This document shows, in pieces, positions 31,875 to 47,579 of a stretch of 64,000 nucleotides of DNA. Position 1 is the stretch's first letter; each line of letters begins with the position of its first letter. A model generated the notes under the pieces. It was not told where the DNA came from. It searched no databases and saw nothing but the letters and a program-made list of their open reading frames with translations. The DNA is from a phage: sequence record PZ445442.1; one strand, written 5' to 3'. The translations under genes and the position numbers were made by a program.

Positions 31875-32189
31875 CTACCAGGTTACTGTCAAGTAGGCAA
31901 CCGTGTTATTTTTCTCTGGAGAGATGCCGACAACATCTACCTGCAAACCTCCTGCCCTTAAATCTCCAACAATGTGCGGGAAGTAATCTGAGAGATGCGA
32001 CGGTAGATTTATCGAAAATCCGCATCCCAGAAAGCCTGCTAACGCTTTATTTTGTATCTCCCCTACAATCGCATCATAAATGGAGTTAAGCTCGTCAGGG
32101 AGCGTTACAGGACGTTTTAGCGCTAACTGGTGTAATTTGTCCTTAGCACTCATTTTCATTTCAGGTCTACCTCTGGGGGTGCCAACCAC
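31875..32189 (-). CDS. hypothetical protein
   Basis: 104-aa ORF. Confidence 0.45.
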   Translation of the reverse strand: MVGTPRGRPEMKMSAKDKLHQLALKRPVTLPDELNSIYDAIVGEIQNKALAGFLGCGFSINLPSHLSDYFPHIVGDLRAGGLQVDVVGISPEKNNTVAYLTVTW

Positions 32190-32689
32190 ATAAATGGCGG
32201 CAAGTCTAAACGGTTTTTCTTATCCCACACAAAATATGCATATGCTTGCCCGTCAGTTCTACCATTTGATTGAAATGATGGACGCTTAGATATTGTGATC
32301 ACAGTAGTAGGTGCATTATCAAGCCACCATTCAAATCTGGCTTTGCTTTCCAGAAAATTAAGACGCAAAAGCATAATAACTACGTCAGCATCTTTCAACG
32401 CCTTGTCTACGAACTCACGGGCCAGACTGTATGGTGGGTTGGTGATAATACAGTCAACATGGTTGTATTCTGTATTCAGATAGTCAACACCTTCTTGGAT
32501 TTCTCCCCATGCAGATCCTAACGGCATACGGGAGTAGAACACACCTGAGGCACTATTCCTGCAAGGCTCTAAGTAGGTCCAGTCTTCTGGGAACGGAATA
32601 AGGTCATACAGCCCTTCTGCACACCACTCCGGTGTCACATACTCATCGTAGGCGTTACGTTGTTCATCAGGTTTTCTAGCACAAGTCAT
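32156..32689 (-). CDS. putative DNA N6-adenine methyltransferase (small phage Dam-like)
   Basis: Catalytic motif IV DCIITNPPY; 177 aa, no obvious separate target-recognition domain. Confidence 0.5.
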   Translation of the reverse strand: MTCARKPDEQRNAYDEYVTPEWCAEGLYDLIPFPEDWTYLEPCRNSASGVFYSRMPLGSAWGEIQEGVDYLNTEYNHVDCIITNPPYSLAREFVDKALKDADVVIMLLRLNFLESKARFEWWLDNAPTTVITISKRPSFQSNGRTDGQAYAYFVWDKKNRLDLPPFMWLAPPEVDLK

Positions 32690-32740
32690 GCAAATCTCCA
32701 GATCATAAAAGCCCTCCGAAGAGGGCTTTAGAATTAATGT

Positions 32741-33790
32741 TTAAGCTTCTTCGACAATTCCTGCACCCAGGATTTTTTCATTGAGCTCTTTTGCTGTTTT
32801 AATAATATTGTCCACCAGGCGCTTGCGAGTCTTATCTTTCACCTTAACCTCTTCACCGCCGTTCAGAGTAGTCTTCAATTGAGACAGAATATCCTGAAGT
32901 TCAACGACAGAGAATCTCTGCAGATCTTCTGAAGTAATCTCACCCAGGGCAATTCTGATGGTCTCGCCACTTTCCATCTGCAGATTCAGGAACACAGTGT
33001 GAACATCACCTTTCGAACCACCCGCTTTTGCAGATTCAACAGCATGAACTAACTCATCTAAAGATGTGCACTGGTGAATCTCCGGGAGACCTGCTTCACC
33101 TAACACGCCTTCTTCATCACCTTTTGCCAGAAGCTTTTTCGGTTTTTGTCCGTTCTGGATGCGTTGTATGTTGCCTTCATCCAGAATAATAGCTCCAGTG
33201 CGTGCTGCCAGCTCTTCTCCGTCCAACCACACTTCGCCACCAGCTGTGATGGATGCGATCTCATCTTCTGTCAGCACCCCACCGTAGTATTTTTCAATCA
33301 GGCGTTCAAAACGTTTTTTCCAGTAGCTGACCTGAGTATTCATGTTCACACCGTTACCATAAGTGCCACCTTGATAGTAGTGGAACATAAACTCTGTGTC
33401 CGGAGCCACAGTGCGTTCTTTGCAACCCAGCCATAAGATTGTTCCCGCAGAGCAGCACATTCCTTCAGCATGTGCAACAACGCTTGCCTGAGACTCGCGG
33501 AATGCCTGCAGATAAGCCATCGCAATGTGCACGCAACCACCAGGGCTGTTAATGATCACTCGAATGCTTTCTTCAGGCTGAGCCATACGGATCGTCTGCA
33601 GGCGAGACATATGATCCTGCAGGTCTTCCAAATCGTCGATATAAAGAACGTGGTCAACAACAGGTGTTGGGTAGCTGTATGTTTCCATGATACCGCCCGG
33701 CATACCAAACATTTTATTACTCATAGGTTCGAAACCGTTCTGTTTCTCTTTCATGCCGTGTACCATGGTGCTGCGAGGTGTTAAATTCAT
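32741..33790 (-). CDS. ClpP-like serine peptidase (S14/S49 fold) with C-terminal extension
   Basis: VINSPGG, AEGMCCSAGTILWLG (Ser region) and FMFHYYQGG (His region) resemble the ClpP catalytic core. Confidence 0.55.
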   Translation of the reverse strand: MNLTPRSTMVHGMKEKQNGFEPMSNKMFGMPGGIMETYSYPTPVVDHVLYIDDLEDLQDHMSRLQTIRMAQPEESIRVIINSPGGCVHIAMAYLQAFRESQASVVAHAEGMCCSAGTILWLGCKERTVAPDTEFMFHYYQGGTYGNGVNMNTQVSYWKKRFERLIEKYYGGVLTEDEIASITAGGEVWLDGEELAARTGAIILDEGNIQRIQNGQKPKKLLAKGDEEGVLGEAGLPEIHQCTSLDELVHAVESAKAGGSKGDVHTVFLNLQMESGETIRIALGEITSEDLQRFSVVELQDILSQLKTTLNGGEEVKVKDKTRKRLVDNIIKTAKELNEKILGAGIVEEA

Positions 33791-33850
33791 GAGAAATCCT
33801 TAATATTGGAAGTTGAAAGCTATTTATTTAAACCTGATTCACATTTACCT

Positions 33851-45483: not shown

Positions 45484-46091
45484 TCTTCTTGGGCCTCTTT
45501 AGCATCAATATACTTGCACACAATCTCCGATGCACACTCCCAAGGTGCACCTTCAGGGTTTACAACATCAAACTCAACCCCTTTTATTCCGTTCTTTTCC
45601 AGACTTAGATAGGTTCTGGAATCATTTCCCCAGTCATATCCTACACGGTGAATACGGAACAACAACAGATCTCCACCTGTGCTGTATGCGTACTCGCTAA
45701 GGCATGCCAGCTCCTCTTTGAATCCCCCATCGGAGTAAACAATAACCCCTTTACCTTCAGGGAAATCTTTCTTCAAAGATGCGACTGCGGCTTTACCGAA
45801 AGCATCTTCACCAAAGATAGGTTTAATCAGATTTTCACTACAATGGATCATCCATTCTCGCGGAGAAACATGCTTGCCGTCTATCATTAAGAAAGGGCAA
45901 GGCTCTTCTTTGTAGTGGCGGTCATAAAGTGCATTCCAGAGTTGAGGAGTTACACCAGCTGCCTTAATTGCCACACTGAAGAGCATTTCCTTAACCTCAC
46001 GGTGGTGTGAGTTAGGAATAGCTTCCAACAAGAGATCTGCAATGTGATCCTTACCACTGCTGGGTGGGGCGTTAAGAACAATAATATCCAT
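45477..46091 (-). CDS. deoxynucleoside monophosphate kinase-like P-loop protein
   Basis: MDIIVLNAPPSSGKD resembles T4 gp1 dNMP kinase N-terminus (LSGVKRSGKD). Confidence 0.5.
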   Translation of the reverse strand: MDIIVLNAPPSSGKDHIADLLLEAIPNSHHREVKEMLFSVAIKAAGVTPQLWNALYDRHYKEEPCPFLMIDGKHVSPREWMIHCSENLIKPIFGEDAFGKAAVASLKKDFPEGKGVIVYSDGGFKEELACLSEYAYSTGGDLLLFRIHRVGYDWGNDSRTYLSLEKNGIKGVEFDVVNPEGAPWECASEIVCKYIDAKEAQEEC

Positions 46092-46294
46092 TAAAAACCT
46101 CCGTGGTATTCTTCAACTGCATCAATAATACTTTTACACTTATCTACCAGCTCGTTAGCCACTACAGCATCGTCTTCCCAAACAGCTTCCTCGATCTGAT
46201 CAAGCAATGATCGCATCTTACCCATCATTTCTGGGATAAAGTCTTCTGAAAAGCTGTCTGGAATTGTTAACTTTAGTGTCATTGCGTTCTCCAA
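46091..46294 (-). CDS. hypothetical small protein
   Basis: 67-aa ORF. Confidence 0.4.
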   Translation of the reverse strand: MENAMTLKLTIPDSFSEDFIPEMMGKMRSLLDQIEEAVWEDDAVVANELVDKCKSIIDAVEEYHGGF

Positions 46295-46309
46295 TCATAC
46301 TATGCGTTA

Positions 46310-46768
46310 TTAGAAGTTTGTTTTTACACGTCCCTTTTCATCAACCTCGTTGTTGGCTAGAAGCGTTACAAAGTCTGTGAAACGGACATGAAGAACTCTT
46401 TTCTTATCAAGGTATCCTAAAGCCACCCCTGAGAAATTTAGCATCAAAGGGGCTAAAGAAGCTCTGGCACTGAAATGCTGTTGTTCTACCCTTCCAACAC
46501 CCTTAGTGTAGGATGGGTTAAGATTGTAAGTTCTGAATCCCAGTTTTGTTGGAGCTTTAGAATTAAAAACAACTTTATAGCGTTTCTTACTCAACTTATG
46601 CTCCAGGATAAGCATTCCCTTATCACCCTTGATAAGTTGAAAATCTGTAAAGTGCTCTTTTAATACGAAAGGTAGTGCCAGTCCCATCGCCTGCCCCCTT
46701 TGTACCGCTGTCTCACCAAAAGCTTTTGCATCAGTAAGTTCTTTGGTCAAGTCTATGCTTTTGATCAT
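46310..46768 (-). CDS. hypothetical protein
   Basis: 152-aa ORF. Confidence 0.45.
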   Translation of the reverse strand: MIKSIDLTKELTDAKAFGETAVQRGQAMGLALPFVLKEHFTDFQLIKGDKGMLILEHKLSKKRYKVVFNSKAPTKLGFRTYNLNPSYTKGVGRVEQQHFSARASLAPLMLNFSGVALGYLDKKRVLHVRFTDFVTLLANNEVDEKGRVKTNF

Positions 46769-47579
46769 ACCTAGTCTCCAAAATGTATTGTAGTTCTTTC
46801 TTACCTATACTCTTCATTCCGGCAGTCTTACCTGCTTCTTCTTGAAAAGAAGAATAGCATTCAGCAAACACTCTGTCAACACCGTCAACTAAAGATTTTA
46901 TGAAATATGTTGATTCTTCAGATTTTGGGTCATCCTCCCCCAATACTTTTCCAGCATTATACCCAACACGTCTTACACAGAAGTCGTAGTCATCTGGAGT
47001 GCTAAAAGAAAATAACTTATTCTCCCCAATCTCTACAGGATCCCTGTTGCACGCCTTTTTCTCCCAAATTTGGAAAACACACGGCACGTCATAAGGTTTG
47101 CCATTAAGTAGAAACGAGTTCTTAGGGCACCTTTCACTGTAGACAAGGTGCATCGACATGTCCAGTTTGTTTGCAAAAAATATTTTTTCAAATGTCCGTG
47201 GCAAGATGAAGGCTATAGCCCCTCCAAGCTCTAGCAATGATGCACAATGGTTAAAGAATTTGCAAGCTAAAGATGAATTCTTGCCAAATGGTGGGTTACC
47301 TATGAAGACATCTGCCTTGGGATGCACCTCCAAGAAGTTTGCCTGAATGCACGGTGTTGGTCCTTCAAATTCAGGATCTGGTACTAGATCGTAAGACAGT
47401 ATCTCTGAAAATAGTTTTGAAAAAGAACCCCTTCCAGCAGAAGGCTCAACGTATGCACAATTTCCATACTTATCTTTTACTTTACCAACAAGATATTCTG
47501 CATACTCAGGGTTTGTGTAATATTTGTCGTTGGACTCTTTCTTGCTCAAAGTGCCTCCAAAAGGAAAAGGGAGGCGCAA
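46731..47579 (-). CDS. DNA methyltransferase (N6-adenine or N4-cytosine class)
   Basis: Motif I VEPSAGRGSF and motif IV FIGNPPFG. Confidence 0.7.
   Translation of the reverse strand: MRLPFPFGGTLSKKESNDKYYTNPEYAEYLVGKVKDKYGNCAYVEPSAGRGSFSKLFSEILSYDLVPDPEFEGPTPCIQANFLEVHPKADVFIGNPPFGKNSSLACKFFNHCASLLELGGAIAFILPRTFEKIFFANKLDMSMHLVYSERCPKNSFLLNGKPYDVPCVFQIWEKKACNRDPVEIGENKLFSFSTPDDYDFCVRRVGYNAGKVLGEDDPKSEESTYFIKSLVDGVDRVFAECYSSFQEEAGKTAGMKSIGKKELQYILETRYDQKHRLDQRTY

What the first reader, a model, noticed from the sequence alone, without database searches (positions are those of the whole stretch)
32156..47579. Two DNA methyltransferase genes in the replication module
One full-size MTase (motif I EPSAGRGSF, motif IV NPPF) and one 177-aa protein with DCIITNPPY. 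Orphan MTases in virulent phages commonly protect the genome from host restriction; the small one lacks an evident target-recognition domain.
Basis: partly seen in the sequence, partly recalled or inferred. Interest (0 to 1): 0.45.

Follow-up and report, generated by a model that had tools for sequence, protein, structure and literature searches.

The report
Two phage DNA adenine methyltransferase genes
The window is a known E. coli phage (EmilHeitz/Bas49) whose two already annotated adenine methyltransferase genes almost certainly mark phage DNA at GATC (shown experimentally in a sister phage) and at GTAC (inferred here), so the finding is real but ordinary.

Summary
Both ORFs and their motifs are present as described. 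The window is 100% identical to Escherichia phage EmilHeitz (Bas49, Vequintavirus), where both genes are already annotated 'putative N6 adenine methyltransferase'.

**ORF-A (177 aa).** It is only a TaqI-like catalytic core with no recognition domain. Its orthologue in sister phage Bas51 is 176/177 identical. Published loss-of-function mutations D69G, D79G and T83P fit only this protein. The T83P phage loses 6mA at GATC (1405 to 35 adenines; the genome holds 1406). So ORF-A is a phage Dam-like GATC methylase, and it also triggers two retrons.

**ORF-B (272 aa; true start 47549).** It has all the gamma-class motifs plus about 100 C-terminal residues. Bacterial homologues sit immediately upstream of type II restriction endonuclease genes. 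Those loci avoid GTAC more than any other 4-bp palindrome, and so does the phage. Bas51 virion DNA carries 6mA at about 99% of GTAC adenines independently of ORF-A. I infer, without proof, that ORF-B is the GTAC methylase.

**Anti-restriction.** This role is plausible only for GATC- and GTAC-containing sites. These phages are experimentally very sensitive to six tested R-M systems.

**New lead.** A conserved 152-aa partner of ORF-B looks like a degenerate restriction-enzyme relative.

The parts
32156..32689 (-). ORF-A, 177 aa (bas49_0177): minimal gamma-class N6-adenine DNA methyltransferase, inferred GATC-specific (phage Dam-like)
32429..32440 (-). ORF-A motif IV, N84-P-P-Y87 (catalytic); the preceding T83 is the residue mutated in the Bas51 loss-of-function phage
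   Evidence: T83, N84, P85 and P86 are invariant in 54 homologues. T83P abolishes GATC methylation in Bas51.
32537..32569 (-). ORF-A motif I, E41-P-C-R-N-S-A-S-G-V-F51 (SAM-binding loop; single-glycine type as in M.TaqI EPACAHGPF, with a 2-residue insertion)
   Evidence: E41 and P42 are nearly invariant. The profile aligns this stretch with motif I of M.TaqI.
32709..32728 (-). GC-rich hairpin AAGCCCTC-TTCG-GAGGGCTT followed by a T-rich tail, between the ClpP-like gene and ORF-A (terminator-like)
   Evidence: Read directly from the sequence. It was not listed by the pattern scan.
46731..47549 (-). ORF-B, 272 aa (bas49_0198): gamma-class type II-like DNA N6-adenine methyltransferase, inferred GTAC-specific
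   Evidence: PADLOC MTase_II PDLC03255 at 1.5e-33 over the full length. AF2 pLDDT 91.5. Bacterial homologues are paired with REase_II genes. GTAC is avoided in those loci. GTAC 6mA in Bas51 is independent of ORF-A.
47421..47447 (-). ORF-B motif I, EPSAGRGSF
   Evidence: E, P, G, G and F are invariant in 54 homologues.
47286..47297 (-). ORF-B motif IV, NPPF (within the invariant GNPPFG)
47568..47587 (-). Terminator-like hairpin AGGGAGGC-TTGC-GCCTCCCT plus T-run directly upstream of ORF-B; it contains the TTG that gave the spurious 282-aa ORF
   Evidence: Best terminator-like site of the region; sequence.
46310..46768 (-). 152-aa ORF (bas49_0197, PHROG 9938, function unknown) overlapping the 3' end of ORF-B by 38 nt: conserved partner of ORF-B-type methyltransferases, and a possible degenerate relative of a ~160-aa type II restriction endonuclease family
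   Evidence: It is adjacent to the methyltransferase in Vequintavirus (downstream), in Phapecoctavirus (upstream) and in two other contigs. hhalign against the REase_II PDLC03550-type family gives probability 84%, E 7.7e-6. No PDB or PADLOC hit of its own.

Best explanation
Both genes encode S-adenosylmethionine-dependent DNA N6-adenine methyltransferases of the gamma (M.TaqI-like) architecture. They methylate replicating phage DNA at two short palindromes.

**ORF-A.** This 177-aa protein is a bare catalytic core: motifs X, I, II, III and IV (NPPY) with no recognition domain. It acts as a phage Dam, methylating essentially every GATC adenine in virion DNA. Host Dam does not substitute for it.

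**ORF-B.** This 272-aa protein has the same core plus a ~100-residue C-terminal alpha/beta extension that presumably reads the sequence. It descends from the methylase of type II R-M systems and most likely methylates GTAC.

**Shown.** The fold and motifs of both proteins; GATC activity of the 99.4%-identical Bas51 orthologue of ORF-A; full GTAC methylation in Bas51 that does not depend on ORF-A.

**Inferred.** That ORF-B makes the GTAC mark. That the biological benefit is protection from enzymes cutting unmethylated GATC- or GTAC-containing sites. From my own knowledge, not tested here, such enzymes would include DpnII/MboI-type, RsaI/Csp6I/PabI-type and KpnI. The known cost is that the GATC methylase is sensed by retrons.
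For: **Identity.** The window is 100% identical to EmilHeitz, and both genes are annotated as putative N6 adenine methyltransferases.

**ORF-A**
- Invariant T19, TNPP83-86, and nearly invariant E41, P42 and D69.
- The family profile hits M.TaqI at 1.9e-6.
- Nakamura et al. 2025 (PMC12548924): Bas51 mutants D69G, D79G and T83P escape retrons Asa1 and Squ1. The T83P phage drops from 1405 to 35 methylated GATC adenines.
- Among the four Bas51 methyltransferases, only bas51_0176 has D69, D79 and T83. It is 176/177 identical to ORF-A. The genome has 703 GATC sites, i.e. 1406 adenines.

**ORF-B**
- All motifs are invariant.
- Full-length match to PADLOC MTase_II at 1.5e-33.
- hhalign of the ORF-A family against the ORF-B family: probability 97.9%, covering only ORF-B residues 8-177.
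- In 16 of 80 bacterial loci a ~210-aa gene follows on the same strand, with a median gap of -3 nt. 14 of 17 members of that family hit REase_II PDLC03460, down to 8e-17.
- Four more loci carry a REase_II PDLC03550-type gene.
- GTAC is the most under-represented 4-bp palindrome in those loci: O/E 0.52 and 0.46, per-locus median 0.50 against 0.73 elsewhere, p=0.003. It is also the most under-represented in the phage window, O/E 0.60.
- Bas51 has 258 GTAC sites, i.e. 516 adenines, of which 509 (wild type) and 511 (T83P) are methylated.
- To my knowledge E. coli K-12 has no GTAC methylase.
Against: - No experiment was done on EmilHeitz itself.
- The GTAC assignment to ORF-B is by elimination and correlation. 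The genus also encodes a 441-aa beta-class N6_N4 methylase (PF01555, 4e-42) that could make the GTAC mark instead.
- Neither protein reaches any Pfam or NCBIfam curated cut-off.
- The GTAC-avoidance test is confounded by taxonomy. GATC is also somewhat lower in the R-M-bearing loci (p=0.011).
- No anti-restriction benefit has been shown, and the phage group is highly sensitive to six tested R-M systems.
Confidence: 0.75

Rival explanations
1. ORF-B is an active DNA adenine methylase but not the GTAC enzyme. In this reading the GTAC mark is made by the 441-aa beta-class methylase encoded elsewhere in the genome, and ORF-B makes part of the 'other' 6mA sites or is poorly expressed.
For: Bas51 has 349-576 methylated adenines outside GATC and GTAC. 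It also has a third N6-type methylase with a strong PF01555 match. No mutant of ORF-B exists.
Against: - The 441-aa protein has the N-terminal DPPF and C-terminal FGGSGTT order typical of Mod-like enzymes, which usually mark asymmetric sites on one strand. That suits the few hundred 'other' sites (my reading).
- GTAC avoidance tracks the ORF-B-type R-M pairs.
- Known GTAC 6mA enzymes such as M.HpyAXII are TaqI-like with the catalytic N at position 87, like ORF-B.
Confidence: 0.17
2. ORF-B methylates RNA (rRNA, tRNA or mRNA m6A) rather than DNA.
For: - The best PDB profile hit is the METTL5-like Ta1320.
- JGI names some homologues 'predicted RNA methylase', and there is a weak Mtase_EDM2 hit.
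Against: - The longest structural alignments (227-253 residues) are to the DNA enzymes M.TaqI, M.BseCI, CamA and MmeI.
- There is a full-length match to a type II DNA methylase model.
- Operon linkage with restriction endonuclease genes in 20 or more bacterial loci.
Confidence: 0.05
3. The methylases serve the phage's own DNA transactions (replication, mismatch-repair evasion, packaging or gene expression) rather than anti-restriction.
For: - The phage group is highly restriction-sensitive.
- Both genes sit among replication and nucleotide-metabolism genes.
- Bas51 methylase mutants give roughly 2-fold lower titres even without a retron (raw PFU values and Tukey tests).
- Overexpression of the methylase is toxic to E. 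coli.
Against: - The tested R-M systems do not contain GATC or GTAC in their sites, so they say nothing about protection at those sites.
- ORF-B's ancestry is from R-M systems.
- GTAC avoidance in the phage suggests real selection by GTAC-cutting enzymes.
Confidence: 0.25

Closest known systems
Bas51 (phage WalterGehring) N6 adenine methyltransferase bas51_0176, the retron Asa1/Squ1 trigger (Nakamura et al., PLoS Biol 2025, PMC12548924)
   Same: Orthologue of ORF-A: 176/177 identical, with the same neighbours (ClpP-like protease upstream). It is GATC-specific by nanopore 6mA calling of wild-type and T83P phage.
   Different: One substitution (V174A). No experiment was done on EmilHeitz itself.
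Small phage Dam family (Pfam PF05869 'Dam'; NCBIfam TIGR01712 phage N-6-adenine-methyltransferase)
   Same: About 165-170 aa, phage-borne, NPPY-type, with no separate recognition domain. From memory, members methylate GATC.
   Different: ORF-A scores only 19.2 bits (cut-off 28.1) and 16.1 bits (cut-off 97). It belongs to a separate large phage family, PHROG 799, with more than 500 viral contigs.
M.TaqI (gamma-class N6-adenine DNA methyltransferase, TCGA)
   Different: M.TaqI has a ~170-aa C-terminal recognition domain. ORF-A has none and ORF-B has only about 100 extra residues. The specificities differ.
GTAC-specific adenine methylases M.HpyAXII, M.PabI and M.CviQI with their restriction partners
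   Same: The inferred specificity is the same (GTm6AC). M.HpyAXII is TaqI-like with its catalytic Asn at residue 87, against residue 85 in ORF-B. Bacterial ORF-B homologues are also the M half of M-R operons.
   Different: The partner families found (PADLOC PDLC03460 and PDLC03550) did not match R.PabI in a PDB profile search. ORF-B in the phage has no recognisable active endonuclease partner.
E. coli Dam and T4 Dam (alpha-class GATC methylases)
   Same: Same product (Gm6ATC), and the same idea of a phage-encoded Dam.
   Different: These have a different motif order and a dedicated recognition domain, at about 260-280 aa. In Bas51 the host Dam does not keep virion GATC methylated once the phage enzyme is inactivated.

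Membership tests
Gamma-class (M.TaqI/Eco57I-like) amino-methyltransferases | Linear motif order X (xTP) - I (EPxxGxG-like) - II (acidic) - III (D/N-F/Y) - IV ((D/N/S)PP(Y/F)) | tested here: met
   ORF-A has Y17xT19P20, E41P42, E63, D69Y70 and N84PPY87. ORF-B has Y21T22, E45PSAGRGSF, D64, F82 and N95PPF98 (282-aa numbering). All are conserved across 54 homologues each.
Gamma-class (M.TaqI/Eco57I-like) amino-methyltransferases | Class I Rossmann-like methyltransferase fold | tested here: met
Gamma-class (M.TaqI/Eco57I-like) amino-methyltransferases | Score above the curated Pfam cut-off of PF07669, PF02384 or PF13651 | tested here: not met
   The best scores are 20.1 bits against 26.4 (ORF-A) and 15.5 bits against 25.3 (ORF-B). 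There are no NCBIfam hits above cut-off.
Gamma-class (M.TaqI/Eco57I-like) amino-methyltransferases | Separate C-terminal target-recognition domain | tested here: not met
   This verdict is for ORF-A: its 177 aa are a single domain that aligns only to ORF-B residues 8-177. For ORF-B the result is inconclusive. It has about 100 C-terminal residues with conserved RRVGGxAGK and TAGxxSLSKxEL motifs, but their role is unknown.
GATC-specific DNA adenine methylase (Dam activity) | 6mA at GATC that depends on the protein | not testable with these tools
   Shown for the 99.4%-identical Bas51 orthologue in the literature: 1405 to 35 methylated adenines in T83P. Not tested for EmilHeitz.
Small phage Dam (PF05869 / TIGR01712) | Score above the curated cut-off | tested here: not met
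   19.2 bits against 28.1, and 16.1 bits against 97.05.
Type II R-M methyltransferase (PADLOC MTase_II PDLC03255) | Full-length profile match | tested here: met
   ORF-B at 1.5e-33, residues 18-263 against model positions 2-249 of 269. ORF-A gives only 1e-3.
Type II R-M methyltransferase (PADLOC MTase_II PDLC03255) | Adjacent cognate restriction endonuclease | tested here: inconclusive
   Met for bacterial homologues, where 21 of 80 loci carry REase_II-type neighbours. In the phage, the neighbour is a 152-aa protein with only remote similarity to one of those families (hhalign probability 84%) and without its D...ExK motif.
GTAC-specific N6-adenine methylases | 6mA at GTAC that depends on the protein | not testable with these tools
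   The evidence is indirect. GTAC 6mA in Bas51 is independent of ORF-A. GTAC is the most avoided 4-bp palindrome in loci with ORF-B-type R-M pairs.
RNA m6A methyltransferases (METTL5/PH1948, Erm/KsgA) | Fold similarity of the core domain | tested here: met
RNA m6A methyltransferases (METTL5/PH1948, Erm/KsgA) | RNA substrate or family-specific partners and domains | not tested
   No TRMT112-like partner or Erm/KsgA C-terminal domain was looked for. The genomic linkage to restriction enzymes argues against membership.

The most novel reading that the evidence does not exclude
ORF-B and the overlapping 152-aa gene (46310-46768) are the remnant of, or a working variant of, a GTAC-specific restriction-modification pair carried by a virulent phage. 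The partner would descend from a ~160-aa type II endonuclease. Either it still attacks unmethylated GTAC in host DNA while the phage's own DNA is protected (as chloroviruses do), or it has lost catalysis and now serves as a GTAC-binding accessory or shield. The pair stays linked in Vequintavirus and Phapecoctavirus despite the reversed gene order.
Probability: 0.2. Interest if true: 0.55.

Novelty: already known. Interest (0 to 1): 0.25.

Why it matters
The practical value is modest.

- The analysis links a published retron trigger and GATC methylase to a specific, very small, recognition-domain-free enzyme family (PHROG 799) that is widespread in phages.
- It proposes which gene writes the unexplained GTAC mark seen in published Bas51 data.
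- It explains why these methylases do not help against the R-M systems used in the BASEL screens: none of those sites contains GATC or GTAC.
- If the GTAC assignment holds, ORF-B-type genes in many bacteria and phages can be annotated with a specificity.
- If the 152-aa partner proves to derive from a restriction enzyme, that would be the more interesting follow-up.

Tried and rejected
- **Curated family libraries.** Pfam and NCBIfam gave only sub-threshold hits. PF26055 (Mtase_EDM2), listed for some homologues, is not in the local Pfam copy and is only a weak hit.
- **PDB sequence searches.** Single-sequence searches found nothing. Profile searches for the two partner families found nothing useful.
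- **Structure libraries.** The afdb50 fold library was unavailable. BFVD hits were mostly unnamed.
- **Degenerate motif I in ORF-A.** I considered that the sequence RNSASG might mean an inactive enzyme. I rejected this because close relatives read EPCRASGRF, the same spacing as M.TaqI EPACAHGPF, and the Bas51 orthologue is active.
- **Non-specific adenine methylase.** I considered this for ORF-A. I rejected it because of the phage's sensitivity to EcoRI, EcoRV, EcoKI and EcoP1 and the clean GATC motif.
- **Genomic context of ORF-A homologues.** It showed only phage-like neighbourhoods with no endonuclease partner.
- **Literature.** Searches for Vequintavirus or rV5 methylation at first gave only annotation-level statements.
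- **Rfam.** It found no intron model in the split nrdD gene.

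
Full report
**Identity of the window.** The 16-kb span is 100% identical to Escherichia phage EmilHeitz (Bas49 of the BASEL collection; Vequintavirus, rV5-like; MZ501062.1), and 114 other phage records cover most of it. 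In that record ORF-A (32156-32689, minus strand, 177 aa) is bas49_0177. ORF-B is bas49_0198. Both are annotated 'putative N6 adenine methyltransferase'. The genes between them encode a ClpP-like protease, PhoH, anaerobic and aerobic ribonucleotide reductases, glutaredoxin, ThyX and small unknowns. The region is therefore a nucleotide-metabolism/replication cluster.

**The observation.** Both ORFs and the quoted motifs are present. The 282-aa reading of ORF-B starts at a TTG inside the loop of a strong terminator-like hairpin (47587-47568). The real start is the TTG at 47549, behind a GGAGG, which gives 272 aa. A similar hairpin lies just upstream of ORF-A.

**What the proteins are.**
- Neither protein reaches a curated Pfam or NCBIfam threshold, and neither has a sequence relative in the PDB.
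- ORF-A belongs to PHROG 799 ('DNA methyltransferase', 8e-67). ORF-B belongs to PHROG 5172 (unknown function, 2.5e-129).
- Alignments of 54 homologues each show the full gamma-class motif series in both, with invariant TNPP in ORF-A and GNPPFG in ORF-B.
- AF2 models are confident (pLDDT 88 and 91.5).
- Profile-profile comparison shows the two families are homologous (probability 97.9%). ORF-A corresponds only to residues 8-177 of ORF-B.
- The small protein therefore truly lacks a recognition domain, and ORF-B has about 100 extra C-terminal residues.

**ORF-A is a GATC methylase.** Nakamura et al. [quoted passage not shown]
- They rebuilt D69G, D79G and T83P in the phage. Nanopore 6mA calling showed a GATC motif that nearly disappears in T83P.
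- Their source data give 1405 GATC, 509 GTAC and 576 other methylated adenines in wild type. In T83P the numbers are 35, 511 and 349.
- Bas51 is phage WalterGehring. I assembled its 140,659 bases.
- Of its four annotated methyltransferases, only bas51_0176 has D, D and T at positions 69, 79 and 83. It is 176/177 identical to ORF-A.
- The genome contains 703 GATC sites (1406 adenines) and 258 GTAC sites (516 adenines). Both motifs are therefore essentially fully methylated.
- Host Dam evidently does not keep up, because GATC methylation collapses in the mutant.
- The enzyme is toxic when overexpressed in E. coli, and the mutants give about 2-fold lower titres.

**ORF-B is probably the GTAC methylase.**
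- ORF-B matches a PADLOC type II methylase model over its full length (1.5e-33).
- Relatives occur in at least 119 bacterial species genomes.
- In 16 of 80 loci a ~210-aa gene follows on the same strand, with a median gap of -3 nt. 14 of 17 members of this family match REase_II PDLC03460, down to 8e-17. The family has invariant E11, D39 and K53.
- Four other loci carry a ~165-aa REase_II PDLC03550-type gene with a D...ExK motif.
- The family is therefore the M half of type II R-M systems, which argues for a DNA substrate.
- In the loci with such pairs, GTAC is the most under-represented 4-bp palindrome (O/E 0.52 and 0.46). The per-locus median is 0.50, against 0.73 in the other loci (p=0.003).
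- GTAC is also the most avoided 4-bp palindrome in the phage window (O/E 0.60, z -5.6), whereas GATC is not avoided.
- These results, together with the ORF-A-independent GTAC methylation in Bas51, make ORF-B the best candidate.
- The rival candidate is a 441-aa beta-class methylase (PF01555) encoded outside the window. In the EmilHeitz record that gene is frameshifted after residue 42, which offers a natural test.
- Known GTAC adenine methylases include the TaqI-like M.HpyAXII.

**Biological role.**
- The BASEL study reports that Vequintavirinae are 'exceptionally susceptible' to R-M systems.
- The systems tested were EcoKI, EcoCFT_I, EcoRI, EcoRV, EcoCFT_II and EcoP1_I. To my knowledge, none of their sites contains GATC or GTAC.
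- That result rules out broad or non-specific protection. It does not rule out protection at GATC- or GTAC-containing sites.
- The only demonstrated consequence of ORF-A's activity is that it triggers retron defence.

**A conserved partner of ORF-B.**
- The 152-aa ORF at 46310-46768 overlaps ORF-B by 38 nt and belongs to PHROG 9938.
- Homologues lie next to ORF-B-type genes in Phapecoctavirus, there upstream of the methylase, between the primase/helicase and polymerase genes. They also lie next to such genes in two further contigs.
- The family is tiny: six proteins in 1.84 billion representatives.
- With eight sequences, hhalign relates it to the PDLC03550-type endonuclease family (probability 84%, E 7.7e-6). 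The two share a PSxxKGxGR motif, but the endonuclease's ExK aligns with K-V-V in the phage family.
- This is a lead, not a finding.

**Verdict.** The finding is real, correctly recognised as two methyltransferases, and already annotated. The small enzyme's activity is already published for a near-identical orthologue. The contributions here are the mapping of that publication to ORF-A, the GTAC proposal for ORF-B, and the partner gene.

Noticed in passing
window 46310-46768 (-): A 152-aa ORF (PHROG 9938) overlaps the 3' end of ORF-B by 38 nt. It stays adjacent to ORF-B-type methylases in Vequintavirus, Phapecoctavirus and two other contigs, with the gene order reversed. It shows remote profile similarity (84%) to a ~160-aa type II endonuclease family but lacks that family's ExK motif.
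   Followed up: partly
window 30403-30927 (-): This 'putative glycosidase' (bas49_0172) is the orthologue of bas51_0171. A premature stop in bas51_0171 (R87*) abolishes defence by retron Asa1 in Bas51. It lies only 1.2 kb downstream of ORF-A.
   Followed up: partly
window 36266-39186 (-): The anaerobic ribonucleotide reductase gene nrdD is split in two (36266-37474 and 38323-39186), annotated as a joined CDS. A 177-aa homing-endonuclease ORF (37568-38101) sits in the intervening sequence. Rfam found no intron family at gathering score.
   Followed up: partly
window 47568-47587 and 32709-32728 (-): Both methyltransferase genes are immediately preceded by GC-rich terminator-like hairpins followed by their own ribosome-binding sites. 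This suggests they are set off transcriptionally from the upstream genes.
   Followed up: no
whole window: GTAC (O/E 0.60, z -5.6) and CTAG (O/E 0.55) are the most under-represented 4-bp palindromes. GATC is slightly over-represented, with 356 sites in 64 kb.
   Followed up: partly
L189 3475-4798 (EmilHeitz record 64.4-65.8 kb, outside the window): The EmilHeitz copy of the 441-aa beta-class N6_N4 methylase of Bas51 is frameshifted after about residue 42. It is annotated as a 344-aa CDS that starts after the DPPF motif. This is either a real inactivation or a homopolymer sequencing error. A 'Dcm-like' gene nearby has no Pfam hit.
   Followed up: partly
GenBank records MG0656xx (e.g. hits H33, H37, H66): About 20-30 records named 'Campylobacter phage' are 98-100% identical to these E. 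coli Vequintavirus genes. This suggests mislabelled or contaminating sequences.
   Followed up: no
window 62086-62894 (+): A cluster of five tRNA genes.
   Followed up: no
L009-L011 and L002: In Paracoccaceae the ORF-B-type methylase plus endonuclease pair directly follows, and overlaps, an IS1595-family transposase gene. An IS1595 copy also lies nearby in Poseidonibacter. The R-M pair may travel as transposon cargo.
   Followed up: no
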